Below are positions 12,477-29,664 of a stretch of DNA of 64,000 nt, piece after piece. The DNA is from Firmicutes bacterium UBA3738. GTDB taxonomy: Bacteria > Bacillota > Clostridia > Peptostreptococcales > Anaerovoracaceae. The notes below the pieces were generated by a model. That model was given only the letters and a program-made list of their open reading frames with translations, did not search any database and was not told where the DNA came from. Both the position numbers and the translations under genes were made by a program. The stretch lies in contig DFGY01000062.1 in assembly GCA_002372505.1 (NCBI GenBank), forward strand, positions 28,322-92,321, written 5' to 3'. Within the stretch, counting starts at the first letter, position 1. The number at the start of each line of letters is the position of its first letter.

Positions 12477-12504
12477 AAACAAAAAGCCTGTCCCCGTGAA
12501 ACGC
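12477..12504. repeat. Dispersed 27-nt element, copy 5 (reverse orientation)
   Basis: AACAAAAAGCCTGTCCCCGTGAAACGC. Confidence 0.8.
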
Positions 12505-12505
12505 T

Positions 12506-13528: not shown

Positions 13529-14508
13529 TTTCTCACCACCACCTTACACCAGCCTATGAACATGGGCGTCTCATCTTCCACTTGGTCGAATACACCGATA
13601 TATCTTGTGCCCGTTGCAATAGCCTCTATTATACCGGTCCACTCGCCATCTTCTTCTTCGAATCTGAGAACTGTGTCATCATTTGAACCATCGCCAAGCA
13701 ATAGGCTCGGGTCATTTTTATATTCATCCAGCTCCGCCTTCGTTTCACATATGACTGTGTAGATATACGTTCCGCTAATAAGATAGTCAAATATATCCAG
13801 ATAATCATAATCCTCGTCACCTAACTTTAGCTTTTCCGTCTTGCCATTGGCCTCGAACTCCGGGGGGATCACTTTGATTCTGAGATAACCTAAGTGCCTG
13901 GTCTCTTTCTTGTATATTTCCTTTACGGCAACTTTGACTGTGCCGACTGTCCTGGCTACGATAATTGTGCCCCCGGCAGTGACTGTCAGGCGGCTTTTGT
14001 CCATGGAAGTGAATACGTACCTGGCCTTGGGTAGTTTGTTCTTAATGTAGAAATCGAGATTGTCGCTCTCAGGATTACGCGCTCTATATATTTCAATCGT
14101 GTCTTTATCCAGGGTGGCATTTAAAACTCTGATTGTGAGAATGGCCTTTCTGGTCTTGCCCTTGTAGCGCTCCTTTATTGTAATCTTCGCCCTGCCGGCT
14201 CTGACGCCGCGTATTACGCCCTTCTTGCTTACCGTCGCAACTTTTTTGTTGCCGGACCTGTAGGTGTATTTCGCTTTGGAATGGTAATATCTGATGGCGT
14301 ATATGGCGCTGGTCTTTTCATCCCGTAGAAGTGTGTCGACCTTGTAATCCAGCTTGAGGGTGCGGGTTTTTGACTTGGCCAGGGCCGTGTCCGCCTGGCC
14401 GGGAATGCCCGCTATGCCGGGAGTGCCCGCCGGCATGCCAAAAATCAGCGACATGGTAATCGCCGCCGCCATCAAAATGGTGAGTAAACGTTTACTTGCT
14501 TTTCTCAT
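13525..14508 (-). CDS. Secreted protein with Big_2-like domains
   Basis: Signal peptide almost identical to that of 11398-12441. ATVSKKGVIRGVRAGRAKITI-type Big_2 signature. The ATG at 14508 is preferred over the TTG at 14523. Confidence 0.75.
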   Translation of the reverse strand: MRKASKRLLTILMAAAITMSLIFGMPAGTPGIAGIPGQADTALAKSKTRTLKLDYKVDTLLRDEKTSAIYAIRYYHSKAKYTYRSGNKKVATVSKKGVIRGVRAGRAKITIKERYKGKTRKAILTIRVLNATLDKDTIEIYRARNPESDNLDFYIKNKLPKARYVFTSMDKSRLTVTAGGTIIVARTVGTVKVAVKEIYKKETRHLGYLRIKVIPPEFEANGKTEKLKLGDEDYDYLDIFDYLISGTYIYTVICETKAELDEYKNDPSLLLGDGSNDDTVLRFEEEDGEWTGIIEAIATGTRYIGVFDQVEDETPMFIGWCKVVVRK

Positions 14509-14544
14509 ATCAATACCTCTCAACTATGTGCCTCGAACTAGTGA

Positions 14545-16175: not shown

Positions 16176-16430
16176 CTAATTACAGAATCGCTTGTTTTGA
16201 TATGAATATAAAAAGATGACAGGGGGGCCTGTCATCTGGATTCCTTCGCCGTCTGTAGTTACTGTCTCAGTTGTTTTAACACCGAGTTTCAATTCTTTTG
16301 CCACATCCTTATCCACGGCACTGACCTTACAAGTACTAAACATCAATATCAGTACCAACAAACCAACAAGTGCCATTATTGGCATCATATTCTTCATCTT
16401 ATCTAACGTTATTGCTTTAATGTAATTCAT
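16176..16430 (-). CDS. Small hypothetical membrane/secreted protein (84 aa)
   Basis: Strong RBS GGAAGGAG before the ATG at 16430 and a hydrophobic N-terminal segment. A perfect terminator hairpin (16215-16236) lies inside the 3' end, so the real product may be shorter or the ORF may be untranslated past that point. Confidence 0.45.
   Translation of the reverse strand: MNYIKAITLDKMKNMMPIMALVGLLVLILMFSTCKVSAVDKDVAKELKLGVKTTETVTTDGEGIQMTGPPVIFLYSYQNKRFCN
16210..16236 (-). terminator. Rho-independent terminator ending the 16.9-16.2 kb transcription unit
   Basis: GATGACAGG-GGGG-CCTGTCATC, a perfect 9-bp stem, followed on the minus strand by TTTTT. Confidence 0.7.
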
Positions 16431-16491
16431 AGTAGGTCTCCTTCCATATTCAATTCTCCGTTATTTCTATCTTCTGGCAAACCCATAGCCG

Positions 16492-16914
16492 TCAGAGCTT
16501 TTTTATTTGTCTTGTCTCATTCTGAAAGTCGATCTCGGCCCCCTCTTCAGCTACTGCCAGTTTTATGAACAGCTTTTCTTTTTTGCCGATTTTAATATCG
16601 TGCACATGATGGTACAATTCCATCAGCGTCCTTTCCCACATAGCAAAGGAAGCATGCTCTAAATAGCTCTTGTTCCTTATTTTCATGATAATATTGCCAT
16701 TAGTCTCCATTTCAGCCTTTTCTCCGACCGCCATGATGCCCAGTGCTTTTTTCCCTTCACCCACCGATAATCCGGTATTCCCGGTTGCTTCATCCATGAG
16801 CCATCTGCCCGCTTCTTCAGAGTCGGTAAACTCTCTCCATTTTTCTTCATCTGCGCCATTCATTATTACCTTAAGAGTTTCGGTGACTTTTACTGTTCCT
16901 GTTTTTTCGCTCAT
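16492..16914 (-). CDS. Hypothetical protein (140 aa)
   Basis: ATG at 16914. Preceded by the shared operator plus an extended -10 (TGTATAAT). No recognisable motif. Confidence 0.65.
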   Translation of the reverse strand: MSEKTGTVKVTETLKVIMNGADEEKWREFTDSEEAGRWLMDEATGNTGLSVGEGKKALGIMAVGEKAEMETNGNIIMKIRNKSYLEHASFAMWERTLMELYHHVHDIKIGKKEKLFIKLAVAEEGAEIDFQNETRQIKKL

Positions 16915-16978
16915 ATTATTTTTCCTTTCTTGTTGCTATTGGATCATCTTTTCTATGATTGAATTATACAAATACAAA

Positions 16979-16995
16979 GCTCAATTTTTTGAGCA
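16979..16995. promoter_or_regulatory. Operator palindrome site 1 (GCTCAA-N4-TTGAGCA), 10 nt upstream of a TATAAT facing the 140-aa gene
   Basis: Minus strand reads TGCTCAAAAAATTGAGC-TTTGTATTTG-TATAAT. About 35 nt are shared with site 3. Confidence 0.7.
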
Positions 16996-16996
16996 T

Positions 16997-18526
16997 TTAC
17001 CGGTTATTCGTTTTTTCTTTCAGATATTTCCGCACGATTTCTACATCCTCCGGCAATGCAGGGCGATTGTATTTCTGCACCATCTGCCTGATGCAATATG
17101 CCCCTCTTTCGCGCCCGAATTCGATGGTATATTCACGCCCATCTATGTCCCAGTGAAAAATTGCTATTTTGTCATTACGCACTTTGCTCCTATAGTTAAA
17201 CACACAATTGTGTTGTCTTTCTCCTTCATCATATAGTGCAGGCGTACTGTCGATCATTTTGAAGTCGTCAGGCAGCAGCTCTTTCAGTTCAAGAAACTTG
17301 CTGTCTTCTGCCAGCAAGGGCTGTTTGAACTCTGCTTCATTTATCTGAGCATAGCGAACCATCTGATCCCTTGCAGCGTCATGGGCATTTTCCAGAGCAC
17401 GTGGCCTGGTTTTTCGGAGAGAGATGAGTTCTCCCGTATCTATACAAAGCTCTCCGTAGTCTCTTGCAATGAATTCGAACCTTTTGAATATTCTTTTCGG
17501 TATATCTTCAGCTGTCTCGAACAATCTGTTAGCATAATATCGTACTAAAAAATCTGACAAAGCCCACTTGATCATTACAGGGTCTGAAAAGTTCTTCACA
17601 CCGGCGCCAATCCATTCCATGAATTCATCCTTCGGAATCGATAGAAGCAATCCCCAGTCAGCCGGCTTTATGAATTCAGCAACCTTCGTCACATACCAGG
17701 AATAATTCATGTTTTTTCTGTTGTAGTTGATCATTAAAGGCTGTTCTGATTCGCCTCTGATCAGTTCATCCGGCGTTCTGTATTTACATGCGTCGTGAAT
17801 CTTGATGGGGTTTGCGAAGTAGTGGTCACTTCTTATTGTCCTTGCAACATCTTTAAGTATCTTCTTTTCTTCGCCCAACATCATAAAGATGTCGGCCAGC
17901 ACATTTCTGAAACTTTCATTGCGCATGAGCAACCTGTTGAGAAATGAAGTGAATCTGAAATAGTAAAAAGTGTTATTGAATCCACTCCAGTACAGTTCAC
18001 CATCCTCTCTTAAATGCATGTTCAATACTGGTCTGTACGTTGTCTTGACTTTCATGGCCGGCTTACCATATGTGCTGCGAAATTCAATCCCTGTTATGGG
18101 ATGGAATACAAGCGTTATGTAATCCATATAGCCGGAAGGCATCTTTTTCTTTTTCAGAGCTACAAGCATATCAAGTTCTAACATCTTCTTTTTTTCCACT
18201 GACTCATCGTAATAATTCATGTATATGTTGTGTGGTGCTCCGGCTTTTTTGAAAAAATCACTTTCCAGACTTGTCCAATAGTCATAATACCAGTCCCATC
18301 TTTCAGTATTGTAAAAGTAGTCGACATTGCTTTTGCGACCGCCGAATACATATTTCGAATCATGATGGTCATAGTATCTTGACACTATTTCTTTTACTGT
18401 ATTTATATCCATTTCAGCGCTCACTTTCTCTTTGATCTTTACTATCGGATTCTTTCTTGTTCTTACTGTCTGTCTCTTTGTCCTGATCCAATATGTCCAG
18501 GATGTCGCCACATGGGGTTTCTCCAT
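16997..18526 (-). CDS. PcfJ-like domain protein (509 aa)
   Basis: The C-terminal DEGERQHNCVFNYRSKVRNDKIAIFHWDIDGREYTIEF resembles the PcfJ-family C-terminal motif (EG..xHCV..Y...G...I). This is a recognition-level call. Starts 3 nt after the upstream stop. Confidence 0.55.
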   Translation of the reverse strand: MEKPHVATSWTYWIRTKRQTVRTRKNPIVKIKEKVSAEMDINTVKEIVSRYYDHHDSKYVFGGRKSNVDYFYNTERWDWYYDYWTSLESDFFKKAGAPHNIYMNYYDESVEKKKMLELDMLVALKKKKMPSGYMDYITLVFHPITGIEFRSTYGKPAMKVKTTYRPVLNMHLREDGELYWSGFNNTFYYFRFTSFLNRLLMRNESFRNVLADIFMMLGEEKKILKDVARTIRSDHYFANPIKIHDACKYRTPDELIRGESEQPLMINYNRKNMNYSWYVTKVAEFIKPADWGLLLSIPKDEFMEWIGAGVKNFSDPVMIKWALSDFLVRYYANRLFETAEDIPKRIFKRFEFIARDYGELCIDTGELISLRKTRPRALENAHDAARDQMVRYAQINEAEFKQPLLAEDSKFLELKELLPDDFKMIDSTPALYDEGERQHNCVFNYRSKVRNDKIAIFHWDIDGREYTIEFGRERGAYCIRQMVQKYNRPALPEDVEIVRKYLKEKTNNR

Positions 18527-18529
18527 ATA

Positions 18530-19456
18530 TCAATTCAAAGCCACCTTTGCGATGCTGTTTACGATGTGCTCGCTGCGTTCTCTTATAAGCCGCGCCGCGG
18601 TACTGAAAAATGTTTTCCAGTCTTCATCATTATCGGGATATGGTATTTCCAGCGAATGCCCCGGGAAGAACGGTATTGGCAGATAGTTTTCATCGACCAT
18701 AGACAGCAGCATATTCTTCTCAACAAATGTTCTCCAGCATCCGAAGTGATCCAGCCATGCTTTGGCATACGATATCTCTCTTTTGCCTTCATCCCGGCTC
18801 TTTATACAAAACAGTTTCCTGAGCGGATCGGTATCCGGTATCGTCTGATCCCTATTCGGATCGTGACTGGTGTGGATATCATAATACTCTTTGATTGCCA
18901 TGAGGCAAAGATCCGTCTGGTCATAAGCCGCAAGATAATCAGGTGCTCCGGTGTAGCCTGTCCTTGCGCAGTTGAATCCTCTGGGCACCGGCATGAAGTT
19001 GCCGATAGTATGGCTTACTGCGAGGAAATCCATCGCACCGGCTTTTTCAAGTCTGGCACGACACTCTTTCGAGAATTCTCCCTCTGCTGACAGCAGCTGA
19101 TAAGTGCCTGTCTTTTTTCCGCAAGACAGCCCGAGAAATTTCTTTAACGGTGACCATGCAGATGTAAGCGTATCGCTGAATTCCGCGAGATTCTCAGCTT
19201 CTCTTCTTACCGGGAATTCATCGAGGATCTGCTTTGAATAATCAGAGCTGTCACAGTCAAACAGCCTTATCTCACTGGATGCGCAGATATTGCCCATGAG
19301 CCAGTACAGACATATCTTCTGCAGCGGATCCAGTGCATCCCAGTCACTGCCGATGCTATCCTTTATATCACAGACATGATCGAGCCATCTCATCATCTCG
19401 CCACCTATCTCGTTTTTCACATCGTATTGTGCATTAATTTTTTTGTTGTTTTTCAT
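18530..19456 (-). CDS. Hypothetical protein (308 aa)
   Basis: ATG at 19456 with an AAAGGAAAA RBS. Tightly packed within the operon. No recognisable motif. Confidence 0.65.
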   Translation of the reverse strand: MKNNKKINAQYDVKNEIGGEMMRWLDHVCDIKDSIGSDWDALDPLQKICLYWLMGNICASSEIRLFDCDSSDYSKQILDEFPVRREAENLAEFSDTLTSAWSPLKKFLGLSCGKKTGTYQLLSAEGEFSKECRARLEKAGAMDFLAVSHTIGNFMPVPRGFNCARTGYTGAPDYLAAYDQTDLCLMAIKEYYDIHTSHDPNRDQTIPDTDPLRKLFCIKSRDEGKREISYAKAWLDHFGCWRTFVEKNMLLSMVDENYLPIPFFPGHSLEIPYPDNDEDWKTFFSTAARLIRERSEHIVNSIAKVALN

Positions 19457-19502
19457 TGTTTTTTCCTTTCTATTCTATCTCTTACGAACCACAATAACTT
19501 GT

Positions 19503-20048
19503 CTATCTGGAACCCCTTATTTCTTGCATTACCCCTATCGACTCTTTTGCCTTGTCAAAATCCAGGGTTCCACAGATATATCCGACTATGGAGTAGCACA
19601 GATCGCCCATCATATGCGGGCAAAAGTTTAGAATGTACCACATCGTATCAGTGAAATATTTCTCTAGCATTTCATATCTGATAAGCGTTCCGCTGTATAC
19701 GTCTTTGTTTTCTTCATCGTATATAATCGTGCGGTCATACAGCGTATCCATCTGATATGTTACATTGCCATTTATATAATTCATGATGCGCGCCGCTCTC
19801 TCATCGCCATGCCCGTCTTCAGCCTCTATTGGCTGGCAATAGTATGTCTGGCAATACATGTGTTCATCTTTGAACCTGATGCTTGTCTCGACCACTTTGC
19901 TGATCACATTGTCATCTTCAGTGGCAAAATACAGAGTATCAATATCCTCCATATCTTTCAGACAGCCGTCTTCATTCAGCGGTCTGTACCCTATATTTGC
20001 TTTTTTGAAGTAATCTTTTACAAGCGACAGTGCTTCTTTCTTGTTCAT
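19503..20048 (-). CDS. Hypothetical protein (181 aa)
   Basis: The ATG at 20048 directly abuts the stop of the small upstream ORF (TAAATG). No confident family assignment. Confidence 0.65.
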   Translation of the reverse strand: MNKKEALSLVKDYFKKANIGYRPLNEDGCLKDMEDIDTLYFATEDDNVISKVVETSIRFKDEHMYCQTYYCQPIEAEDGHGDERAARIMNYINGNVTYQMDTLYDRTIIYDEENKDVYSGTLIRYEMLEKYFTDTMWYILNFCPHMMGDLCYSIVGYICGTLDFDKAKESIGVMQEIRGSR

Positions 20049-20192
20049 TTACATCTCCCCTCTCATCACTTTGTTCAGATTATTTATGGCGATTTTCCTT
20101 ATTTCTTTTTTTATTACTTTTTCGTATTCTGCGTTGCCTTTCTGTGTTTTGACATGATTAAGTTCGAATAACAAGCTTTTCATTTTGCTCAT
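20049..20192 (-). CDS. Small basic ORF (47 aa; MSKMKSLLFELNHVKTQKGNAEYEKVIKKEIRKIAINNLNKVMRGEM), not in the supplied ORF track
   Basis: Translated by hand. Strong RBS AAAGGAGG 7 nt before the ATG at 20192. The stop TAA is immediately followed by the ATG of the next gene. Confidence 0.5.
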   Translation of the reverse strand: MSKMKSLLFELNHVKTQKGNAEYEKVIKKEIRKIAINNLNKVMRGEM

Positions 20193-20239
20193 ATGAGATA
20201 CCTCCTTTCGTAATTTCTGATTCAATTATATCTATGCGA

Positions 20240-20257
20240 TGCTCAAAAAATTGAGCA
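20240..20257. promoter_or_regulatory. Operator palindrome site 2 (TGCTCAAAAAATTGAGCA), 10 nt upstream of a TATAAT facing the minus-strand four-gene operon
   Basis: Minus strand reads TGCTCAATTTTTTGAGC-ATCGCATAGA-TATAAT, then the RBS and the ATG at 20192. Confidence 0.7.
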
Positions 20258-20361
20258 TTGATATCTTTTTTGGGAGATTATTATTAAATTTTTTGAAACG
20301 GCGGCATCAAAGCACATATTTCGCATATCGCTTAATAAAAGTGCAGGAACTGCTGGATTTA

Positions 20362-20370
20362 TGCTATAAT
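20362..20370 (+). promoter_or_regulatory. Extended -10 (TGCTATAAT) for the HipA-like gene
   Basis: TGnTATAAT lies 30 nt upstream of the ATG at 20400 and is followed by RBS AAAGGAGGAG. Confidence 0.5.
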
Positions 20371-20399
20371 ACTGAGAACATCGGAAAGGAGGAGCGCGA

Positions 20400-21419
20400 A
20401 TGAAACTGCACATAATGTCCGCAGATAATGAAGTGGCGGTGTTGACTGATTCAGGTCTCACCATTATTGATCCTGCGCTCTGTCCTATGTTCATCAAGAG
20501 AACAAACGATGTCCACACATGGATCAGTAGCAGAGCTATAGAGGGCGTCCGTTCGAATTCCCGCATACTGAAAAAAGTCCATGGGCTGTCTCGTTTCGCT
20601 TCTGACTACGATACTGCTATGGCTTACAATGCGGCCTGCGTCACGGATAACTTCTGGGTCCGCACAGGATCCGAGACATGGGACGATATCCGGTTCACTA
20701 ATGATATCTACTTTCGCATGGCTCTGGACAGTGACAACGAAATGATAGGCAAAGCTCCTTCAAGAACGCCGGAGCTTACCAATATCGGCACACAGGAAAA
20801 AGGCTGGCGCCTCATCGGTGATGAATGGTGGCTATACAAAAGAGAGCCGGACTTTCAGCAAAAGGCAGAAATCCTGACATACCGCATTGGCCGGTTGCTG
20901 GGTTTTGATATGGCGCACTACGAGATGGATGGCGACTATATCCGCACTCTCGATTTCACAAAAGGCGAATATAATCTCCAGCATGCTGACGCTGTAATGC
21001 ACGGCAAGCTGGAAGATGATTATGAATATAATTACGATAAGCTGATGGCAATGGGTCCGGCACTTGCCTCACAGTATCTGGACATCATTTACCTTGACTC
21101 ACTGATGAACAACGTTGATCGCCATCTGAAGAATTACGGCTTTCTCACTTCGCAGGAGGATGGCAGCATTATCAAAATGGCGCCAAACTACGATAACAAC
21201 ATGAGTCTGTACGGATACCCCGGATGTCTTGGCAGTGACCGGTGCGGCGGATTGATGAAGTTCTTTACAGATTTCCTGACAAACAAAGGCATCAAATACG
21301 AGACACCCGAACTGAAAAAAAATGATCTGCTGGATCTTTGCAAAGGATTTGACAGGCCGGAAGAACTGGTCCGCTACATAATGGCCGGACAGGAAGTCGT
21401 GCAGCAATGTTGTGTGTAA
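20400..21419 (+). CDS. HipA-family serine/threonine kinase-like protein (short, 339 aa)
   Basis: GTQEKGW (HipA P-loop-like GxQxK motif), catalytic-loop NNVDRHLKNYGFL (compare HipA DxHxKN), and APNYDNN. Confidence 0.7.
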   Translation: MKLHIMSADNEVAVLTDSGLTIIDPALCPMFIKRTNDVHTWISSRAIEGVRSNSRILKKVHGLSRFASDYDTAMAYNAACVTDNFWVRTGSETWDDIRFTNDIYFRMALDSDNEMIGKAPSRTPELTNIGTQEKGWRLIGDEWWLYKREPDFQQKAEILTYRIGRLLGFDMAHYEMDGDYIRTLDFTKGEYNLQHADAVMHGKLEDDYEYNYDKLMAMGPALASQYLDIIYLDSLMNNVDRHLKNYGFLTSQEDGSIIKMAPNYDNNMSLYGYPGCLGSDRCGGLMKFFTDFLTNKGIKYETPELKKNDLLDLCKGFDRPEELVRYIMAGQEVVQQCCV

Positions 21420-21540
21420 AATCAAAACACACTCCAACTGTTGCAGGTAATTGTACTCTTTTCACATTATCCATTTTAGGTTAAGAGTGCTTTGCCAAAT
21501 AAGTTTGATCTCCGACATATAACGGAACGAAAGGGATAAT

Positions 21541-22776
21541 ATGAAAATGAAAGATAAATGGTTCGAACGAGGTGGATTTCTTTATGATATAACGAAGGAG
21601 TATGGGCGGTTAAGGAAAAAGGACATCAAGGACATCATAGATAATCCAAATAATAATAAATCTGATCTTGATTTTTATGAAATCCTTTTTCTTAATAACC
21701 TTGATAATGTCGCCAAAAATTTTATTACTCGTAGAATCCCCAAAAATGTTAACTCTGTGTCTATTTTTCATACGTGCTTTAATTGGAAGAGTCAAAATAA
21801 TAATGAAAAGAAATTACCTATTATTGATGAATTAAAATCATTTGCAAACACAAACTTTATATATAAACTTCCGGGTGATTGGGATACGGATAGATTGTTG
21901 AGATATTCTTTTCGATGGGATGCTGCACCTAATTATTGGCCACATGTTGAACAACTGCGTTATTCAATTTGTGAAATTAAGAAAAACTATCCACAATATA
22001 ATTATAATAATTGGAATGCAGTTGCAACAAAATCAAGCAGCGCAGAAAAATGGATTCTAAAGGGCAATAATAAAGACACTAGTATGGAAATAGAACTCTC
22101 CTCAGATATATGTACCGGCAAATCTATTGTGGCCGATATTAGTATTATCCCTAGCATGACAAAAAATATTGGACCGAAAAAATTAAAGGAATACATATCT
22201 GATAATGTCAACAAGTTTTATTATCTTGAACCTTTTCTTAATGTGATGTACACATGTGGAAATATGACAACAATACCAAATATAAAAGGATCTAATAAAG
22301 GCGGAGGCAATGATCGCTGGGACGCAAAACTACAAAATATTAAAGACTTTATTGTGGAAGGCAAAGGGAAAAAAATAGGAATAACTTTATACGAAATCTA
22401 CAATAAGAAAAACGAACCCTGGAAACAATACGTCATCGAGCATTATATGAACGACTATGTAAACAAAGACTGGAATGTAAAAAATATTCAATCACCAGAG
22501 GTTGTGTTACAGAAAGATGAAGAACCATCAGCTCGCGGAAACGAAGAAACCTTTTATATAAACGCTGCTAAACTCATCATCCAGCGTGGTTACCGTATAT
22601 ACTATCAATACGAACGAGATAACGAGGGAAAAATCAAATATAAAGATGACAAGCCAGTCAGAAACAAAGACCTCTTCAATGAGGATCTATCTTTCATATG
22701 CAAAGCCAAAGATGAATTGCAAGAAGCATTTAAAGCAGTCGGGATTCCGGAAAACAAACTAGATATAATAGAATAA
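21541..22776 (+). CDS. Hypothetical protein (411 aa), markedly AT-rich gene
   Basis: The ORF has an AAAGGGA RBS. The first 60 nt hold 20/60 G+C by hand count. N/K/I/Y-rich with no recognisable motif. Confidence 0.65.
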   Translation: MKMKDKWFERGGFLYDITKEYGRLRKKDIKDIIDNPNNNKSDLDFYEILFLNNLDNVAKNFITRRIPKNVNSVSIFHTCFNWKSQNNNEKKLPIIDELKSFANTNFIYKLPGDWDTDRLLRYSFRWDAAPNYWPHVEQLRYSICEIKKNYPQYNYNNWNAVATKSSSAEKWILKGNNKDTSMEIELSSDICTGKSIVADISIIPSMTKNIGPKKLKEYISDNVNKFYYLEPFLNVMYTCGNMTTIPNIKGSNKGGGNDRWDAKLQNIKDFIVEGKGKKIGITLYEIYNKKNEPWKQYVIEHYMNDYVNKDWNVKNIQSPEVVLQKDEEPSARGNEETFYINAAKLIIQRGYRIYYQYERDNEGKIKYKDDKPVRNKDLFNEDLSFICKAKDELQEAFKAVGIPENKLDIIE

Positions 22777-22777
22777 C

Positions 22778-22806
22778 CGGTGGTCACGTAGCTTGCATGA
22801 CCACCG
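22778..22806. terminator. Bidirectional terminator hairpin between convergent genes
   Basis: CGGTGGTCA-11 nt-TGACCACCG, a perfect 9-bp stem, between the stop at 22776 (+) and the stop at 22839 (-). Confidence 0.6.
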
Positions 22807-22838
22807 ATTAGAGAGCACAGAGTATCCTTTGAAAACTC

Positions 22839-23993
22839 TTACTTTTTCCCCTCTTTCATAACCCCATACATCTCAGCCATCTGTTTGATCCTGTTTTGTA
22901 TTTCTTCCCTGACTTCCTCAGGTTCCAGGACTTCCATCTTTTCTGCATGCTGAAGAGCGAAGTTTATCATTCCGTAAGGAGAACACAACACTTGGACCAG
23001 ATCGTAGTTCTTGTCGTTCTTATCAGGTCCGAGATATTCGTACTTGTCACCAAAAGCGGCGAACAAAAAATTGTATTCAGGCTCGATGGATTTCCCGTAC
23101 TGATCTTTTTTACTTAGTACTCTTAGCGTCATGTACTGCGGCTTATCGTAAGACATACCAAGATGTGTAAGTGTATATTCCGAATCCCAATGCTGAGGCA
23201 TATTTTCGACTTCTCTCTTAGGTATCCGTTTCGATTCTGTTTTGCTTACATCCGACATAAGATCCACGCGCAGTATATATGTGTTCTTGTATTTTTCGTT
23301 TGCTGCCAGCAGATAGTATTTCCCATCATTGGCCACAATATAGTACGGACTGGCAATCCTTTCATAATTACCCGCAGGAGCCAGTTTTCTTTCACGTGTG
23401 TACCCGTTGAATCTATATTTGATCTGGACATTTTCATCTATAGCCTGTTGTATCGTCCTGAGGTTGTCTCTCAGCTGCTGTATGTCATATTTCGGGGTCT
23501 CATATATCTTGCAGACATTACTGGCGCTTGCTTTGTAGTGTTTAGAAGCGAATTTTTCTTCAAGTGTCTTTATCAGTTTATCCGCTCTTTCCGGTTCCAT
23601 GGTACGAGAGAAGTTTATGGCTTCTACCATACTGCTGATATCTTCATGAGAAAACTCGGGATTATAATACAGATTACTCACTTGAAGATAATCTTTTTCA
23701 AATTCTTCTGTATCACCAGCTTCCCCGTACACAGCTTTGTAATCATCAAAAACGATTCGCCAGTCATCGTCCGGAAGAGGTATATCATTCTCATCCAGAT
23801 TCATTGCATCTGCAAGATTAACAAGAAATGTATGCACCGTAGTCCGGTTGCCCAGGTTAATATTCTTTCCTTCGAAATACTCTCTTATATCCTTTAGATT
23901 GATTTTGTGATCCGGATCCGGATCCGTATTTTTCTTAAGATACTCCAGAAACATAATAGTGCGTCTGGTCTGATTTATCTTTTCCCCTTTCAT
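22839..23993 (-). CDS. HTH + WYL-domain transcriptional regulator (BrxR/CapW/PafBC-like architecture)
   Basis: N-terminal winged-helix-like region (RRTIMFLEYLKKNT...LKDIREYF). Central WYL-like core (ASPYYIVANDGKYYLLAANEKYKNTYILRVDLMSDV). Strong RBS GGGAGGA. Divergent from the AAA+ gene and shares operator site 3. Confidence 0.6.
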   Translation of the reverse strand: MKGEKINQTRRTIMFLEYLKKNTDPDPDHKINLKDIREYFEGKNINLGNRTTVHTFLVNLADAMNLDENDIPLPDDDWRIVFDDYKAVYGEAGDTEEFEKDYLQVSNLYYNPEFSHEDISSMVEAINFSRTMEPERADKLIKTLEEKFASKHYKASASNVCKIYETPKYDIQQLRDNLRTIQQAIDENVQIKYRFNGYTRERKLAPAGNYERIASPYYIVANDGKYYLLAANEKYKNTYILRVDLMSDVSKTESKRIPKREVENMPQHWDSEYTLTHLGMSYDKPQYMTLRVLSKKDQYGKSIEPEYNFLFAAFGDKYEYLGPDKNDKNYDLVQVLCSPYGMINFALQHAEKMEVLEPEEVREEIQNRIKQMAEMYGVMKEGKK

Positions 23994-24054
23994 AATGATC
24001 CTCCCTGAAACAAAGGCTTGTGGATTTTTCGCCTCTTTATATTATATCATGTAC

Positions 24055-24071
24055 GCTCAAAAAATTGAGCA
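24055..24071. promoter_or_regulatory. Operator palindrome site 3 (GCTCAAAAAATTGAGCA) in the divergent WYL / AAA+ promoter region
   Basis: Plus direction reads TTGAGC-ATTGTATTTG-TATCAT. Minus direction reads TTGAGC-GTACATGA-TATAAT. Confidence 0.7.
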
Positions 24072-24127
24072 TTGTATTTGTATCATTATAGCATAATCTA
24101 CATTTCAAACAATCAGCGGAGGGAAAA

Positions 24128-26179
24128 ATGATATTAAAAAAAATTGAATTTGAAATAGCCAGCAAGGAAATATCACAAGCTGTATCCGGCAGATTCGATA
24201 ACGACTATTCAAAGCGTGTAGAATACATCCGTTTGCTGGGAAGTCTGAATGAGCAGCTGATGAAATCATTCAAAGGATCCGGTAATACTTTTTTTGCGGC
24301 GCTGACTAAAGGAGTGGATAACAGGATGTCTGCCATTTTAGCTTATGACATCAAAACCCACACTGAACAGGAATGCATATCGATCATTTCAAAAGTTATA
24401 GGCAAAGCCAAGATACTTTCCTGCCGTGAAATCACGATCACGGACTTTTCAGCGAAGCTGGGAGAGGTAGAAGGTATTCCAACAAACTCCATTATTCACA
24501 CACTTGGTCTGGACATATATGCCACTGCTTCCCTTTTTCATAGTCCTGCGTATGAAATATCTGAAGACATCAAGGACAAGAAAAGATACCCTAAAGAAAA
24601 GTGTCTTATGGAAGCGAAAAAAATCATGGCATCAAAAAGTTTTTTGGATGAAATAAGCCGGATCTATTCAAGGAAAAACACAAGGAAATACTACGGCCAC
24701 CCTGTGCACTATTACATTTCTGCCGGCTCCTGCGGAGCTGCAAAAGATATCACTGATATTCTAATTACAGCACTTCTGCACAACAACAGACTTCCCGGGG
24801 GCCGAGTCACAACAGTCAGCAACATTACTGATAAAGCATCGAAAGAAGTCAACTTCAAAAACATATTTCCGTCATGCCGTGGCGGCACCGTGATCGTAGA
24901 TCTTTCAGCGGAATACGAGATAAACAACTACGCAACAGGATATTTATCAATTGCAAAGGAACTGGGTAATCAGCTCGGCAAATACGGAAATGATACCCTG
25001 TTCATTTTCGTCGACATATCCGGCAGCTCAGTGATACGCGGCGAGACTCTGACAGGGATCCTGGCAAACGGAGATATAATTGAGATCGAAGAGGGCTACG
25101 GCGACTACCGGCAGGCAGTTTCATATCTCCGTGATCTGGCGCAAAGAAGCGAATTCAGTCAGTACGCCGACGATGATCTGCAAACTTATCTTCCCGAAAA
25201 AGAATCATATAATGTTTCTGATATTTTTTTCGCTTACGAGAGATGGTACGGCAAGGGGCTCAAAACTCATATTTATCCTGCTTATGCCGAAATAGATACA
25301 TATCATATCGAGGCCGAAAAACCGAAGAGCAGACCCTATGACAAACTGATGGAAATGATCGGGCTCGATGATATAAAAAAGACCATTGACCGGGTCATAG
25401 ATTCATCAAAGATCCAGACTATACGGCATGACATGGGATTATCGTCCGTCGTTACCCTTCCCCATATGATGTTCTACGGCAATCCCGGCTCTGCGAAAAC
25501 CAGCGTTGCCAGGCTGATGGCTCAGATTCTCAAAGAAGAAGGGGTTCTAAAAAGCGGCCATCTCGTCGAATGTTCCCGAAGCGACTTGGTCGGAAAGTAT
25601 GTGGGATGGACCGCTCAAATAGTAGAAGACAAATTCAAATCTGCCAAAGGTGGTATACTGTTCATAGACGAGGCTTATTCCCTTGCCGATGGCAGCAATA
25701 CTTACGGACAGGAAGCAATCAATATGATAGTTCAGCTGATGGAGAACTACAGAAACGATGTTCTGGTCGTCTTTGCAGGATATCCGGAGAAAATGAAAGA
25801 CTTCATCCGCACCAACGAAGGTCTGAAGAGCAGGATCGCCTTTCATCTGCATTTTAAAGATTATGACCCTGAGGAGATGGTCAGCATACTCAAGCTGATG
25901 GCCAAAGAAAAGGAATTGAATCTCACTGCAGGAGCACTAAATAAATGCAGATCCGTTTTCGAAGAAGTCTGCTGTCTCTCTGATTTTGGCAATGGAAGAT
26001 ACGCCCGGAATCTCCTAGAACAGGCTCAGATGAATCAAGCGGAAAGGCTCTTTCGGATCGGCGAACCAAAAGAGATTACAAAAGAAGATATCAAGTTGAT
26101 AAAAGCATGCGACATAGAATCCGTGAAGCAGATGGGCAATGAACCTGAAAAAATCAAAAAAATTGGATTCAGTATATAA
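24128..26179 (+). CDS. AAA+ ATPase (SpoVK/CbbX-type C-terminal module) with a long N-terminal region holding a degenerate second NTPase-like module
   Basis: Walker A GNPGSAKTS and Walker B GGILFIDEAYSL in the C-terminal module. The N-terminal YYISAGSCGAAKD...GGTVIVDL looks like a decayed P-loop/Walker B pair. Confidence 0.8.
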   Translation: MILKKIEFEIASKEISQAVSGRFDNDYSKRVEYIRLLGSLNEQLMKSFKGSGNTFFAALTKGVDNRMSAILAYDIKTHTEQECISIISKVIGKAKILSCREITITDFSAKLGEVEGIPTNSIIHTLGLDIYATASLFHSPAYEISEDIKDKKRYPKEKCLMEAKKIMASKSFLDEISRIYSRKNTRKYYGHPVHYYISAGSCGAAKDITDILITALLHNNRLPGGRVTTVSNITDKASKEVNFKNIFPSCRGGTVIVDLSAEYEINNYATGYLSIAKELGNQLGKYGNDTLFIFVDISGSSVIRGETLTGILANGDIIEIEEGYGDYRQAVSYLRDLAQRSEFSQYADDDLQTYLPEKESYNVSDIFFAYERWYGKGLKTHIYPAYAEIDTYHIEAEKPKSRPYDKLMEMIGLDDIKKTIDRVIDSSKIQTIRHDMGLSSVVTLPHMMFYGNPGSAKTSVARLMAQILKEEGVLKSGHLVECSRSDLVGKYVGWTAQIVEDKFKSAKGGILFIDEAYSLADGSNTYGQEAINMIVQLMENYRNDVLVVFAGYPEKMKDFIRTNEGLKSRIAFHLHFKDYDPEEMVSILKLMAKEKELNLTAGALNKCRSVFEEVCCLSDFGNGRYARNLLEQAQMNQAERLFRIGEPKEITKEDIKLIKACDIESVKQMGNEPEKIKKIGFSI

Positions 26180-26181
26180 AA

Positions 26182-26199
26182 TGCTCAATTTTTTGGGCA
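26182..26199. promoter_or_regulatory. Operator palindrome site 4 (TGCTCAATTTTTTGGGCA, one arm mismatch), 10 nt upstream of a TATAAT
   Basis: TTGGGC-ATACGGTCGC-TATAAT, then RBS AAAGGAG and the ATG at 26265. Confidence 0.6.
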
Positions 26200-26264
26200 T
26201 ACGGTCGCTATAATTAACATTGAAAGTTGATTTCATAGCATTCTTAAATAAAGGAGCATTCGAA

Positions 26265-26642
26265 ATGAGTAACAAAAGAAAATACGAACCTATCGAGACT
26301 TATCGCTACAATAATGTTTGTAAGAATTGCAAAAACATCTATTATTATTTTAAAGACGAAGAATATGCTATAATTAAATGCGAGCATAATGTGGCGACCT
26401 GCCTGCTCAACGGAGCCATGCAATTTGTTTATCGGAAACCCGGAGAAGAACTAATCAAATCTGAAGTGCCCCTGCATATTTGTAAGAATTGCAAAAACAC
26501 ATATTATGATTTAGAAGACGACGGATATGTTCTTAAATGCAGGCATAATATGGCAGGCTGCCTGTCCAACGATGCCACGCATTTTGTTTACCGGAAACCC
26601 GGAGAGGAAATCGCCAAATCCGATGTGATTCTATCCGAATAA
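26265..26642 (+). CDS. Small Cys-rich protein with two tandem zinc-ribbon-like repeats (125 aa)
   Basis: Internal duplication: CKNCKNIYYYFKDEEYAIIKCEHNVATCL..FVYRKPGEE versus CKNCKNTYYDLEDDGYVLKCRHNMAGCL..FVYRKPGEE. The ATG at 26265 with RBS is preferred over the TTG at 26220. Confidence 0.7.
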   Translation: MSNKRKYEPIETYRYNNVCKNCKNIYYYFKDEEYAIIKCEHNVATCLLNGAMQFVYRKPGEELIKSEVPLHICKNCKNTYYDLEDDGYVLKCRHNMAGCLSNDATHFVYRKPGEEIAKSDVILSE

Positions 26643-26681
26643 TTCGTATATTGTTATAAATGATAAGGACAGGGAATTGAA

Positions 26682-26960
26682 ATGTTTGATAATAAAGTAA
26701 TCAAGAAAATAATAGCTTCAGGATGTGATGAGTCTTTTATAGAGGATGTGCATTCTTTATTCGATATTGTTCGATGTGATGACTGCCATACCCAAAAAGA
26801 AAAAGAACTCATCGTTTACAATTGTAAAAGCACTGTGGAAAGAATCAATGCTGTGGCAGAAGAGAAAGGCTTTGAAAGGTTTTATACAAAAGATGAACAC
26901 ATCGATTTTGAGAAAGATTTAAGAGATTATGTATTGGGCGTAGTCAAGCAAATGATGTAA
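26682..26960 (+). CDS. Hypothetical small protein (92 aa)
   Basis: ORF in the same operon; contains CDDCH and further Cys residues. No family recognised. Confidence 0.55.
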   Translation: MFDNKVIKKIIASGCDESFIEDVHSLFDIVRCDDCHTQKEKELIVYNCKSTVERINAVAEEKGFERFYTKDEHIDFEKDLRDYVLGVVKQMM

Positions 26961-26981
26961 TAATTCAGGAGATCAAATGAT

Positions 26982-27614
26982 ATGGAGAAAAAGATTCTGG
27001 CTTTGACAAAAGACGGAAAGTTAGCATTTTGCTCAGCAAAACCAGATGGTAGATGCAAAGACAGGTGCGATCACGCAGACCACCAAAAGTTTTATCAGAC
27101 AGCTCAGGATTTTATAACGCAATTAGGCATGAACGGGATCAAGCTTGAGAAAGATGATGAAATAAAGAGAGCTGTGTATTTAAAACGGAATATTGAAAAT
27201 CTGCACTTTCCAACAGATTATCATAAGAAATTGAAAGAAGATATCAGTTGGATAAAATATATCATTACTAACAATCCGGCACAGGAAAAGAACTCGAGAA
27301 TAATAAAAAACTATTATGAGTTCATTTACAAGTCTGATGCACTATTTGCAGTAATAGGCTATAGCGCATCAGGTATTAAAGATAAGCAAGAACAATATAA
27401 GCAGATAGATAGCAAGCGAAGAGATTTTCATAATGCCACACTTGGAGCTTTTGCTTCTATGGTTGCAGATTGCAAGCAAAAAATCGGTATAGATATTTAT
27501 GACAAAGATTATAAAGAGATATTAAAAGCACAGAGTGAATACGGAGGGGAACGAACCAGGGTCGCCAACTATCTGTATGATGTCATCAAATATTATAATG
27601 ATGTTGACGATTAG
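26982..27614 (+). CDS. Hypothetical protein (210 aa) with an N-terminal Cys/His cluster
   Basis: CSAKPDGRCKDRCDHADH cluster near the N-terminus. RBS AGGAGA upstream. Confidence 0.6.
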   Translation: MEKKILALTKDGKLAFCSAKPDGRCKDRCDHADHQKFYQTAQDFITQLGMNGIKLEKDDEIKRAVYLKRNIENLHFPTDYHKKLKEDISWIKYIITNNPAQEKNSRIIKNYYEFIYKSDALFAVIGYSASGIKDKQEQYKQIDSKRRDFHNATLGAFASMVADCKQKIGIDIYDKDYKEILKAQSEYGGERTRVANYLYDVIKYYNDVDD

Positions 27615-27785: not shown

Positions 27786-27821
27786 GTGAGACCGTCGTGA
27801 TTTCAATGCTTTCAGCGATTG

Positions 27822-27856
27822 TTTCCACCACGATTTCCACCACAGTTTCCACCACT
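27822..27856. repeat. Three direct repeats TTTCCACCAC (period 12-13), arm-type-site-like
   Basis: Copies at 27822-27831, 27834-27843 and 27847-27856, 36 nt right of core copy C. Confidence 0.8.
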
Positions 27857-29640: not shown

Positions 29641-29664
29641 TTTTTCTCTCCAGAAGATTTGTTT

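What the first reader, a model, noticed from the sequence alone, without database searches (positions are those of the whole stretch)
16176..27614. Operator-linked low-GC island: WYL regulator, orphan HipA-like kinase, two-module AAA+ ATPase, Zn-ribbon proteins and a PcfJ-like operon form one candidate undescribed system
Thirteen genes in about 11.5 kb are mostly without recognisable function and sit in DNA visibly more AT-rich than the flanks. One 17-18-nt palindrome ties the transcription units together, and I found it nowhere else in the 64 kb. The few recognisable parts are a WYL-domain regulator, a HipA-family kinase lacking any HipB-type partner, a SpoVK/CbbX-type AAA+ with a decayed second NTPase module, and a PcfJ-like protein. 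These are the kinds of parts found in anti-phage or mobile-element islands, where WYL regulators such as BrxR/CapW control defence operons. The combination does not match any named system I can recognise. No capsid, portal, terminase, integrase or conjugation genes are present, so it does not read as an ordinary prophage or ICE.
Basis: partly seen in the sequence, partly recalled or inferred. Interest (0 to 1): 0.85.

Follow-up and report, generated by a model that had tools for sequence, protein, structure and literature searches.

The report
WYL-factor regulon with swappable cargo genes
This gut-bacterium island is the local gene set of one sensor-type regulator (WYL family): its 16-bp binding site replaces the usual -35 promoter element in front of five transcription units. 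Relatives in other genomes keep the regulator and the site but swap most of the cargo, so it is a stress- or attack-inducible gene set rather than one fixed 13-gene machine.

Summary
Thirteen genes lie in 16176-27614 at 40% GC. WYL, HipA_C, PcfJ and CbbX/SpoVK-type AAA+ domains are present, and the AAA+ protein has a degenerate N-terminal AAA-like half. The palindrome GCTCAA-N4-TTGAGC occurs four times here and nowhere else in the window (0.02 expected).

New findings:
- Every copy sits exactly 10 nt upstream of a TATAAT-like -10 box, where a -35 element would be. One copy is bidirectional and also serves the WYL gene.
- The same box, spacing and -10 recur beside WYL orthologues of at least 45% identity in 10 other Clostridia loci. 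The 35-41% clade uses a different box (GGTGGAAAAAACCG-N13-TATAAT, 31 sites).
- The modelled WYL protein resembles the activators PafBC and DriD more closely than the repressors BrxR and CapW. Those activators use this -35-less promoter design.
- Cargo is not syntenic. Only DUF6994-like genes (g4 and the 411-aa g7 are both members) and the AAA+ recur. The PcfJ/DUF6994 pair recurs once. The HipA-like kinase lacks the box, and the Zn-ribbon operon is lineage-specific.

Verdict: this is a WYL-controlled, probably activator-driven, variable accessory regulon. It is a new variant of a known kind, not a single novel 13-gene system.

The parts
22839..23993 (-). g8: wHTH-3-helix-bundle-WYL-WCX transcription factor (384 aa), the proposed master regulator
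   Evidence: Pfam WYL and WCX. The AF2 model has pLDDT 86. Foldseek matches over the full length: PafBC 2.3e-11, DriD 7e-10, BrxR 4e-7, CapW 1e-5. There are 192 homologues at E<=1e-10 and 228 50%-identity clusters at E<=1e-30.
24055..24070 (.). Box A copy 3 (GCTCAAAAAATTGAGC). It is bidirectional: TATCAT lies 10 nt downstream on the + strand (g9), and TATAAT lies 8 nt (TAATAT 10 nt) downstream on the - strand (g8, autoregulation).
20241..20256 (-). Box A copy 2, 10 nt upstream of TATAAT on the - strand. It is the promoter of the 47aa-g5-g4-g3 operon.
16979..16994 (-). Box A copy 1, 10 nt upstream of TATAAT on the - strand. It is the promoter of g2-g1 and lies directly after the PcfJ stop codon.
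26183..26198 (+). Box A copy 4 (1 mismatch), 10 nt upstream of TATAAT. It is the promoter of g10-g11-g12.
24128..26179 (+). g9: 683-aa two-module AAA+. Residues about 196-365 form a degenerate AAA-like module. Residues 406-663 form an intact CbbX/SpoVK/EccA-type AAA+ with lid.
   Evidence: Orthologues directly follow Box A in L015, L016 and L020.
26265..26642 (+). g10: 125-aa protein with two CxxC...CxH Zn-ribbon-like units, made by an internal tandem duplication
   Evidence: (D1/D3). No homologue in about 75 related loci.
26682..26960 (+). g11: 92-aa protein with no detectable family
26982..27614 (+). g12: 210-aa protein with an N-terminal Cys/His cluster and no detectable family
20049..20192 (-). 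47-aa ORF, the first gene of the Box-A-driven operon
19503..20048 (-). g5: 181-aa protein of unknown family. One relative lies inside the WYL regulon of L020.
18530..19456 (-). g4: 308-aa DUF6994-like protein (motif HTIGNFxPVP...N...R...DxxD). Pfam curators describe DUF6994 as having a beta-beta-alpha-metal, HNH-like fold.
   Evidence: PMC11701544. Adjacent to a PcfJ-like gene also in L055.
16997..18526 (-). g3: 509-aa protein with a C-terminal PcfJ domain
   Evidence: Pfam 39 bits against a cut-off of 25. Of the plasmid records with tblastn matches, 165 of 170 are typed as conjugative, and no phage record matches.
16492..16914 (-). g2: 140-aa acidic protein with no family
16176..16430 (-). 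g1: 84-aa protein with an N-terminal hydrophobic anchor. A terminator-like hairpin lies at 16214-16237.
20400..21419 (+). g6: 339-aa HipA_C-type kinase with intact catalytic motifs. It has its own extended -10 promoter (TGCTATAAT, about 20362-20370) and is not Box-A linked.
   Evidence: (PDC-M03A 1.2e-10)
21541..22776 (+). g7: 411-aa divergent DUF6994-like paralogue of g4, probably co-transcribed with g6
   Evidence: hhalign against the family profile gives 96.4%, E 1.3e-9. Relatives in L082 and L044.
22774..22810 (.). Hairpin of 15 pairs between the convergent genes g7 and g8, a likely terminator. The scan calls it on the - strand.

Best explanation
The segment is the local regulon of one transcription factor, g8. 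g8 belongs to a Clostridia-wide clade of wHTH-WYL-WCX proteins.

Shown here:
- A dimer-type 16-bp palindrome (Box A, GCTCAA-N4-TTGAGC) occupies the place of the -35 element, exactly 10 nt upstream of a near-consensus -10 hexamer.
- It does so at five promoters, from four sites, one of which is bidirectional.
- These promoters drive g8 itself, the two-module AAA+ g9, the Zn-ribbon/92-aa/210-aa operon, the 47aa-g5-DUF6994(g4)-PcfJ(g3) operon, and g2-g1.
- The box type changes with the WYL clade.

Inferred:
- g8 works like the WYL activators DriD and PafBC. When its WYL domain binds a nucleic-acid damage signal, most likely single-stranded DNA made during DNA damage, phage attack or DNA entry, the dimer on Box A recruits or adapts the housekeeping RNA polymerase to promoters that are otherwise too weak. 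All units, and g8 itself, then switch on together.
- The cargo is modular and exchangeable. The recurrent partners are DUF6994-like putative nucleases and the AAA+ remodeller.
- In relatives the same promoter cassette drives metallophosphoesterases, HAD_SAK phosphatase, Macro-domain and P-loop kinase genes. This points to a response to nucleic-acid or ADP-ribose-type damage, or to invading DNA.
- The HipA-like kinase with the second DUF6994-like gene is a neighbouring, separately transcribed module.
For: 1. Box A occurs 4 times in the window against 0.02 expected, and nowhere else in the window.
2. All four copies lie 10 nt upstream of TATAAT or TATCAT. Copy 3 also has a -10 box on the other strand facing g8.
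3. The consensus promoter scan finds no -35/-10 pair at these sites. The hexamers at 16-18 nt spacing read CAAAAA or TCAAAA, at most 3 of 6 matches to TTGACA.
4. Box A followed by 10 nt and TATAAT recurs in every locus but one (L018) holding a WYL orthologue of at least 45% identity: L012-L017, L019, L020, L082 and L083. That makes 20 sites at d=10, with different spacer sequences. The sites lie upstream of the WYL operon and upstream of the AAA+.
5. The 35-41% identity clade instead has GGTGGAAAAAACCG at 31 sites. Thirty of them lie exactly 13 nt from a -10 box, and all are on the coding strand. A third WYL island (L007) has six copies of GATGTGCA-N6-TGCACATC. So the box co-varies with the regulator.
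6. The g8 model (pLDDT 86) aligns over its full length to PafBC (2.3e-11) and DriD (7e-10), ahead of BrxR (4e-7) and CapW (1e-5).
7. DriD and PafBC promoters lack a -35, keep a canonical -10, and carry the regulator site over the -35 position at a fixed distance. Both proteins are switched on by ssDNA (PMC13004042; PMC8635444; abstracts).
8. Cargo in relatives: Metallophos in 27 loci, DUF6994-like in at least 23 of 44, HAD_SAK_2 in 11, the AAA+ in 10, AAA_33 kinase in 8, and Macro in 3.
Against: - No experiment exists. Binding of g8 to Box A rests only on co-occurrence and co-variation.
- A repressor that occludes RNA polymerase would also sit over the -35 region. CapW and BrxR, the WYL factors of defence islands, are repressors.
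- Some Box A promoters have TG near the -10 and might fire without a -35.
- Within the window, copies 1 and 3 share 41 nt at 88% identity. Part of the fixed spacing there could therefore reflect cassette duplication. The cross-genome spacers, however, differ.
- The Foldseek ranking of activators over repressors is modest (TM 0.4-0.6).
- The ligand is unknown. One Firmicutes WYL factor senses c-di-GMP (PMC11880434).
- The functions of PcfJ, g2, g5 and g10-g12 remain unknown, so the output of the regulon is inferred only from relatives.
Confidence: 0.6

Rival explanations
1. g8 is a BrxR/CapW-type repressor of a defence island. It sits on Box A, blocks RNA polymerase, and is released by ssDNA during infection or DNA damage. 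The cargo is one or several abortive-infection or restriction-like defence modules.
For: - g8 has the wHTH-WYL-WCX architecture.
- The box overlaps the core promoter at every unit and at the regulator's own gene.
- The neighbourhood carries PADLOC candidate hits: g6 PDC-M03A at 1.2e-10, the DUF4143 ATPase PDC-S01 at 1.9e-57, and the SWIM protein PDC-S62 at 7e-10.
- DUF6994 is described as type-IV-restriction/HNH-like (PMC11701544).
- CapW senses ssDNA and de-represses (PMC11662680).
Against: - Spacing to the -10 is invariant to the nucleotide at about 50 promoters in many genomes, with no -35. A repressor does not need this. It is the hallmark of DriD and PafBC promoters.
- The BrxR operator lies downstream of the -10.
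- The model is closer to PafBC and DriD.
- No validated defence system is present.
Confidence: 0.28
2. The thirteen genes are a single, new multi-protein anti-phage or anti-plasmid system. Kinase, AAA+, PcfJ-like, nuclease-like and Zn-ribbon parts would work together.
For: Four of the five or six transcription units share one operator. The arrangement is kept in variants whose proteins are 91-96% identical (L002, L054).
Against: - The set is not syntenic beyond near-identical strains. In 44 WYL-anchored loci, about 10 AAA+-anchored loci and 23 g4-anchored loci, no locus combines more than WYL, DUF6994-like and AAA+.
- PcfJ co-occurs only with g4 (L055).
- The kinase, g10-g12, g1 and g2 are never found.
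- The kinase unit lacks the operator.
Confidence: 0.07
3. The island is an accessory or establishment (anti-defence) module left by, or belonging to, a conjugative or mobilisable element. An ssDNA-sensing WYL factor would fire the genes when the element enters a cell.
For: - PcfJ relatives lie almost only on conjugative plasmids (165 of 170 records).
- WYL+DUF6994 modules sit next to MobL relaxase and integrase-like genes in L033, L041, L043 and L086.
- A DUF6994 protein is cargo of an integrase+FtsK element.
- The island has low GC.
- Its proteins occur in 65-80 sequence variants, against 8 for the host's TyrRS.
Against: - No integrase, relaxase, T4SS or replication gene is present in the 64 kb.
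- Most WYL loci are flanked by ordinary chromosomal genes.
- Only 3 of 2.9 million viral contigs carry a relative.
Confidence: 0.15
4. The palindromes are intrinsic terminators or RNA hairpins between operons, not protein-binding sites.
For: The terminator scan flags three of the four sites as short hairpins followed by T-rich sequence. Copy 1 lies directly after the PcfJ stop codon.
Against: - Copy 3 lies between two divergent start codons, where nothing needs terminating.
- The stems have only 3-4 G-C pairs.
- The sequence, not just the pairing, is conserved across genomes, and it keeps a fixed distance to a -10 box.
Confidence: 0.03

Closest known systems
DriD (Caulobacter crescentus), the WYL activator of the SOS-independent DNA-damage response
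   Same: It has the wHTH-3HB-WYL-WCX architecture (Foldseek 7e-10 to 2e-9 over the full length). It binds a palindromic site over the -35 position at a fixed distance from a -10 box, at promoters lacking a -35. It controls several promoters, including a divergent one at its own gene (PMC13004042).
   Different: There is no detectable sequence similarity (a profile against PDB sequences gives no hit). The phylum and the box sequence differ. The cargo is an adjacent variable island rather than dispersed repair and division genes. The ligand and the direction of regulation are untested.
PafBC (Actinobacteria), the WYL activator that works by sigma adaptation
   Same: It is the best structural match (2.3e-11). 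Its hybrid promoters have a canonical -10 plus a regulator-specific upstream element and no -35 (PMC8635444). It is triggered by ssDNA (PMC11804915).
   Different: PafBC is a heterodimer, or a fused tandem protein, that reads an asymmetric -26 element and controls about 150 genes. g8 is a single chain with a symmetric box and a local regulon.
BrxR and CapW, WYL repressors of BREX, CBASS and other defence islands
   Same: They share the domain architecture and an inverted-repeat operator. They co-localise with mosaic accessory or defence islands and are autoregulated (PMC9122601; PMC11662680).
   Different: BrxR homologues are 97% proteobacterial. The BrxR operator lies downstream of the -10. 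These are repressors. No BREX, CBASS, R-M or other named system is present here. The structural match is weaker (4e-7 and 1e-5).
HipA, HipT and CtkA kinases (HipA_C) and PADLOC candidate PDC-M03A
   Same: g6 keeps the GxQxK loop, the DRHxKN catalytic loop and the APxYD motif. It matches PDC-M03A at 1.2e-10.
   Different: There is no HipB or HipS partner and no HipA N-terminal domain hit. Its neighbour is a DUF6994-like protein. It is not operator-linked.
CbbX, SpoVK and EccA AAA+ ATPases
   Same: The C-terminal module (406-663) matches CbbX structures at 2e-51 and SpoVK at 4e-75.
   Different: The scores are far below the equivalog cut-offs. There is an extra 400-residue N-terminal region with a degenerate AAA-like module. 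The family is found next to WYL regulators, or next to ClpP-like peptidase and sigma-factor genes.
'Swiss-army-knife' RNA-repair and nucleic-acid end-healing gene neighbourhoods of Firmicutes (Pfam HAD_SAK_2)
   Same: Relatives' regulons hold HAD_SAK_2, several calcineurin-like phosphoesterases, a P-loop kinase, Macro, NUDIX, Tpt1 and NAD-ligase genes.
   Different: None of these enzymes is in this window. The link rests on orthologous regulators only. The defining paper could not be read here.

Membership tests
wHTH-WYL-WCX transcription factors | WYL domain followed by a WCX dimerisation domain | tested here: met
   Pfam WYL 33.8 bits (cut-off 21.8) and WCX 26.1 bits (cut-off 23.9).
wHTH-WYL-WCX transcription factors | N-terminal winged HTH joined to the WYL domain by a helical bundle | tested here: met
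   Pfam finds no HTH. The AF2 model (pLDDT 86) aligns over 384-401 columns with DriD, PafBC and BrxR chains.
wHTH-WYL-WCX transcription factors | Binds an inverted repeat near its own gene | tested here: inconclusive
   A bidirectional Box A lies 62 nt upstream of g8, and the box co-varies with the WYL clade.
DriD/PafBC-type WYL activators | Target promoters lack a -35, keep a canonical -10, and carry the regulator site over the -35 position at a fixed distance | tested here: met
   Twenty Box A sites lie at exactly 10 nt and 30 of 31 Box B sites at exactly 13 nt. No -35 is present.
DriD/PafBC-type WYL activators | ssDNA binding to the WYL domain switches on transcription | not testable with these tools
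   This needs biochemistry or reporter assays.
BrxR/CapW-type repressors of defence systems | Adjacent to a recognised defence system (BREX, CBASS, R-M and others) | tested here: not met
   The PADLOC scan of the island proteins found no named system, only the candidate PDC-M03A and weak IetA-like AAA hits.
HipBA / HipBST toxin-antitoxin | HipA_C kinase core with catalytic Asp and Mg-binding Asp | tested here: met
   HipA_C 32.3 bits (cut-off 30.5). DRHLKN and APNYD align with the CtkA catalytic core.
HipBA / HipBST toxin-antitoxin | Adjacent HipB (Xre-HTH) antitoxin, or HipS | tested here: not met
   The neighbours are a 47-aa ORF on the other strand and the 411-aa DUF6994-like g7. There is no HTH hit.
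PADLOC candidate PDC-M03 | Component A together with component B | tested here: inconclusive
   g6 hits six PDC-M03A models (best 1.2e-10). No island protein hits a PDC-M03B model.
PcfJ (PF14284) | Pfam domain above the gathering score | tested here: met
   39 bits against 25, residues 356-496.
DUF6994 (PF22507) | Pfam domain above the gathering score, with the conserved Asp pair | tested here: inconclusive
   g4 scores 21.4 bits, below the cut-off of 27. However, 13 of 17 members of its family hit DUF6994 (best 1.3e-10). g7 joins the family by hhalign at 96.4%. D179 and D182 are invariant. The fold was not verified: the AF2 model had pLDDT 51.
SpoVK / CbbX / EccA equivalogs | NCBIfam equivalog score | tested here: not met
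   252, 220 and 201 bits against cut-offs of 423, 459 and 467. g9 is a related AAA+ but not one of these proteins.
Prophage / ICE | Integrase, capsid/terminase, or relaxase/T4SS genes | tested here: not met
   Pfam scans of the ORFs of about 190 aa or more across the 64 kb. PHROGs gives only unknown-function or generic ATPase hits.

The most novel reading that the evidence does not exclude
Clostridia carry a previously undescribed clade of WYL activators. Each defines a portable 'box + fixed spacer + -10' promoter cassette, so that any newly acquired gene can be plugged into one damage- or invasion-triggered regulon. In this genome the cassette has captured a new effector set that acts as a novel inducible defence against phages or incoming plasmids. 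The set comprises DUF6994-type nucleases paired with PcfJ, a pseudo-AAA/AAA+ remodeller and Zn-ribbon proteins, with a HipA-like kinase next door.
Probability: 0.2. Interest if true: 0.8.

Novelty: new variant of a known kind. Interest (0 to 1): 0.5.

Why it matters
WYL factors are emerging as the main switches of bacterial defence and DNA-damage programmes. The studied cases are proteobacterial repressors (BrxR, CapW) and two activators (DriD, PafBC).

This locus, with the roughly 50 related promoters found here, offers four things:
- A Firmicutes/gut-microbiome clade (228 clusters at 50% identity at E<=1e-30) with a readable regulatory code: two box types, each at an invariant distance from the -10.
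- An apparently activator-type promoter design outside Actinobacteria and Caulobacter.
- A way to predict regulon membership from sequence alone.
- A short list of uncharacterised cargo families (DUF6994-like, PcfJ, the two-module AAA+, C2 and C6) whose induction signal could now be tested.

It does not by itself reveal a new defence mechanism.

Tried and rejected
- AF2 model of g4 from the only 8 homologues available gave pLDDT 51, with the conserved motif region below 50. It was not used for a fold search.
- Profiles of the WYL clade and of the DUF6994-like family gave no hits against PDB sequences.
- Viral-contig scans with g6, g7, g3 and the g4 alignment found nothing. The WYL alignment found only 3 contigs, which are copies of Lachnospira/Eubacterium chromosomal loci next to prophage-like genes.
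- g3 has no match in 50,697 phage records.
- g4 and g7 show no direct BLASTP similarity. The link needed a profile.
- A literature search for 'PcfJ' returned only C. elegans pCFJ plasmids. The Burroughs & Aravind RNA-repair paper is not held. 'PDC-M03' appears in one unrelated phage paper.
- A k-mer search for fixed-offset boxes in the most distant WYL loci (L003, L018, L021, L025, L032, L039, L040, L044) gave nothing convincing.
- Reading Box A's TTGAGC arm as a -35 element was rejected, because it lies only 10 nt from the -10.
- I considered whether the island is a prophage or ICE and rejected this for lack of any hallmark gene.

Full report
**1. What is in the sequence**

The stretch 16176-27614 holds thirteen ORFs. 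They coincide with the genes called on the source record, a human-gut metagenome scaffold of an uncultured Bacillota bacterium.

On the minus strand:
- g1 (84 aa, N-terminal membrane anchor)
- g2 (140 aa)
- g3 (509 aa, PcfJ domain, 8.9e-10)
- g4 (308 aa)
- g5 (181 aa)
- a 47-aa ORF at 20049-20192

On the plus strand:
- g6 (339 aa, HipA_C, 1e-7)
- g7 (411 aa)

Then g8 on the minus strand (384 aa, WYL + WCX), followed on the plus strand by:
- g9 (683 aa, AAA + AAA_lid_6)
- g10 (125 aa, two Zn-ribbon-like units from an internal duplication)
- g11 (92 aa)
- g12 (210 aa)

The island is 40.4% GC against 47.5-49% in the housekeeping flanks. The low-GC tract really runs from about 15.7 to 37.2 kb. It also holds a SWIM protein, a DUF4143 ATPase (PADLOC candidate PDC-S01, 1.9e-57), a C11 peptidase and a zeta-toxin-like P-loop protein. 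Pfam scans of the ORFs of about 190 aa or more across the window found no integrase, phage structural or conjugation domain.

**2. The palindrome is real and is part of a promoter cassette**

GCTCAAWWWWTTGAGC with at most one mismatch occurs four times, at 16979, 20241, 24055 and 26183. The expected number is 0.02, and there is no other copy in the window.

Reading the flanks and scanning systematically shows that each copy is followed, after exactly 10 nt, by TATAAT (three copies) or TATCAT (one copy) on the strand of the downstream genes.
- Copy 3 lies between the divergent start codons of g8 and g9. It also has TATAAT 8 nt away (TAATAT 10 nt away) on the other strand, so one site serves both g9 and the regulator gene.
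- The hexamers 16-18 nt upstream of these -10 boxes fall inside the palindrome and read CAAAAA or TCAAAA, at most 3 of 6 matches to TTGACA.
- The consensus scan finds no -35/-10 pair at any of the sites.

Five transcription units are linked in this way: g8; g9; g10-g12; 47aa-g5-g4-g3; and g2-g1. The g6-g7 unit is not linked. It has its own extended -10 (TGCTATAAT, about 20362), and the nearest box is about 110 nt upstream, facing away.

**3. The box belongs to the WYL protein**

g8 has 192 homologues at E<=1e-10. A profile search counts 228 50%-identity clusters at E<=1e-30 and 1,966 at 1e-10. I fetched 42 genomic loci and two metagenomic loci.

Loci with an orthologue of at least 45% identity:
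- L012-L017, L019, L020, L082 and L083 contain Box A or a one- to two-base variant. L018, also in this identity range, has no site with two or fewer mismatches.
- In these loci the box is always followed by 10 nt of unrelated sequence and then TATAAT. Together with the window, that makes 20 sites at d=10.
- The sites lie upstream of the operon that ends in, or starts with, the WYL gene, and upstream of the g9-type AAA+.

Loci with orthologues of 35-41% identity:
- They carry a different element, GGTGGAAAAAACCG, at 31 sites.
- All 31 are on the coding strand, and 30 lie exactly 13 nt from a -10 box.

A third island with other WYL genes (L007) has six copies of GATGTGCA-N6-TGCACATC, each in front of a transcription unit.

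Box type thus changes with regulator clade while the architecture stays the same. This is the pattern expected of a cognate binding site. It also argues against mere terminators. In addition, copy 3 sits where nothing needs terminating.

**4. Activator or repressor**

A profile of the clade finds no solved structure by sequence. The AF2 model of g8 (119-sequence alignment, pLDDT 86) aligns over its full length to WYL factors. The order is PafBC (2.3e-11), DriD (7e-10 to 2e-9), BrxR (4e-7), the Cas13d-associated WYL1 (1e-6) and CapW (1e-5). The model has the helices between the HTH and the WYL domain that form the three-helix bundle in DriD.

The literature held here gives the relevant comparisons:
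- DriD-regulated promoters lack an identifiable -35. They have a clear -10 and a DriD site overlapping the -35 position at an identical distance from the -10 in all targets (PMC13004042).
- PafBC promoters lack the -35 but have a canonical -10 plus a PafBC-specific upstream element (PMC8635444).
- Both proteins are activated by ssDNA.
- BrxR is a repressor whose operator lies downstream of the -10. Its homologues are 97% proteobacterial (PMC9122601).
- CapW is a repressor released by ssDNA (PMC11662680).

Nucleotide-exact spacing at about 50 promoters with unrelated spacers, no -35, and the structural ranking make the activator model the better one. I put it at about 0.6, against about 0.3 for a repressor. 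This step is inferred, not shown.

**5. The cargo is modular, not a fixed system**

I clustered ORFs from all the loci and ran tblastn, phmmer and hmmsearch.

Frequent neighbours of the regulator:
- calcineurin-like phosphoesterases (three families, in 27, 14 and 6 loci)
- an unknown 273-aa family (20 loci)
- DUF6994-like proteins (at least 23 of 44 loci)
- HAD_SAK_2 phosphatase (11 loci)
- an unknown 193-aa family (11 loci)
- the g9-type AAA+ (10 loci)
- an AAA_33 kinase-like protein (8 loci)
- a Macro-domain protein (3 loci)
- NUDIX, Tpt1 and NAD-ligase in some islands

Of the window's genes:
- Only g4, g7 and g9 belong to recurrent families.
- g5 has one relative (L020).
- g3 recurs once, directly downstream of a g4-like gene (L055; 45% and 37% identity).
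- g6 has one weak hit, 9 kb from a WYL gene.
- g1, g2, g10, g11, g12 and the 47-aa ORF have none.

The full 13-gene arrangement is seen only in contigs whose proteins are 91-96% identical (L002, L054).

**6. What the parts are**

- **g9.** It has an intact CbbX/SpoVK/EccA-type AAA+ module (CbbX structures at 2e-51; below every equivalog cut-off). It also has a degenerate AAA-like module at about residues 196-365, with a non-conserved Walker-A lysine. Elsewhere this family sits next to ClpP-like peptidase and sigma-factor genes. That fits a protein-remodelling role.
- **g4 and g7.** Both belong to a DUF6994-like family. Thirteen of 17 members hit PF22507. g7 joins at hhalign 96.4%, E 1.3e-9. 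The conserved motif is HTxGNFxPVP...N..R...DxxD. Pfam's curators describe DUF6994 as sharing the beta-beta-alpha-metal fold of HNH and type IV restriction enzymes, with two invariant aspartates (PMC11701544). I could not verify the fold.
- **g6.** It keeps the HipA/CtkA catalytic motifs and matches the PADLOC candidate PDC-M03A. It has no HipB-like partner.
- **g3.** Its relatives lie on conjugative plasmids (165 of 170 records) and in no phage record.
- **Mobile-element contexts.** DUF6994 and WYL modules also occur beside MobL relaxase and integrase-like genes, and as cargo of an integrase+FtsK element. A mobile-element origin or role for part of the cargo therefore stays open.

**7. Verdict**

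It should be restated as follows. The segment is the local regulon of a Clostridial WYL factor that most likely acts as a DriD/PafBC-like activator through a 'box-10 nt-TATAAT' cassette. Its cargo is exchangeable, and the recurrent core is a DUF6994-like putative nuclease plus a two-module AAA+.

This is a new variant of a known kind. What deserves follow-up is the regulatory code and the list of co-induced unknown families, not a single new 13-gene machine.

Noticed in passing
L016, L022-L024, L027-L031, L034-L038, L041-L043, L046-L050, L053 (for example L034:11214, L049:11605): A second promoter element, GGTGGAAAAAACCG, occurs at 31 sites. Thirty of them lie exactly 13 nt upstream of a TATAAT-like -10 box. 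They precede HAD_SAK_2, 273-aa, 193-aa and WYL genes in Lachnospiraceae and Oscillospiraceae loci. Many copies are embedded in a G+C-rich hairpin followed by a T-run, so they may double as terminators.
   Followed up: partly
L007:4055, 6799, 9926, 14610, 16684, 18605 (GCA_000702085.1): Six copies of GATGTGCA-N6-TGCACATC punctuate a 20-kb island. The island holds two WYL genes, Tpt1, YpsA, HAD_SAK_2, DUF2779, cREC_REC and a g9-type AAA+. This is the same multi-operator design with a third box.
   Followed up: partly
L006:9379-12043; L008:9391-12070; L010:1421-3932 and 10001-12627: In genomes without the WYL neighbour, the g9-type two-module AAA+ is immediately adjacent to a ClpP-like peptidase gene and close to sigma-70-family genes. 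This suggests an AAA+/peptidase pair.
   Followed up: no
window 28015-30972: Directly downstream of the finding lie a 541-aa SWIM-finger protein (PADLOC PDC-S62 N-terminus, 7e-10) and a 435-aa AAA_14/DUF4143 ATPase (PDC-S01, 1.9e-57). Neither has Box A. They extend the defence-candidate character of the low-GC tract.
   Followed up: partly
window 36188-36772: A 194-aa zeta-toxin-like P-loop protein (Pfam Zeta_toxin 9.6e-12) lies at the far end of the low-GC tract. No obvious epsilon-type partner was examined.
   Followed up: no
window 26314-26627: g10 contains a recent internal tandem duplication of about 160 nt: 26314-26468 against 26476-26627, at 79-85% nucleotide identity. It duplicates a CxxC...CxH unit.
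   Followed up: partly
window 27810-27855: Three tandem 12-nt units (TTTCCACCAC-like) lie in the intergenic region between g12 and the SWIM gene.
   Followed up: no
window 11398-12456 and 13525-14523: Two paralogous secreted proteins have near-identical signal peptides (MRGIDMRKASKRLLTI...). They lie in a run of four secreted proteins with Big_2, CAP or no recognised domains, just upstream of the island.
   Followed up: no
L077:4729-12222 (also L078, L079): A 478-aa DUF6994 protein represents 1,147 member sequences in human-gut data. It is cargo of a small element with a tyrosine integrase, an HTH_17 excisionase-like gene and an FtsK/SpoIIIE gene.
   Followed up: no
window-wide; At 90% identity, the island proteins fall in clusters of 65-80 member sequences. 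The host's TyrRS and Sua5 clusters have 8. This hints that the island, or parts of it, circulates more widely than this host lineage.
   Followed up: no
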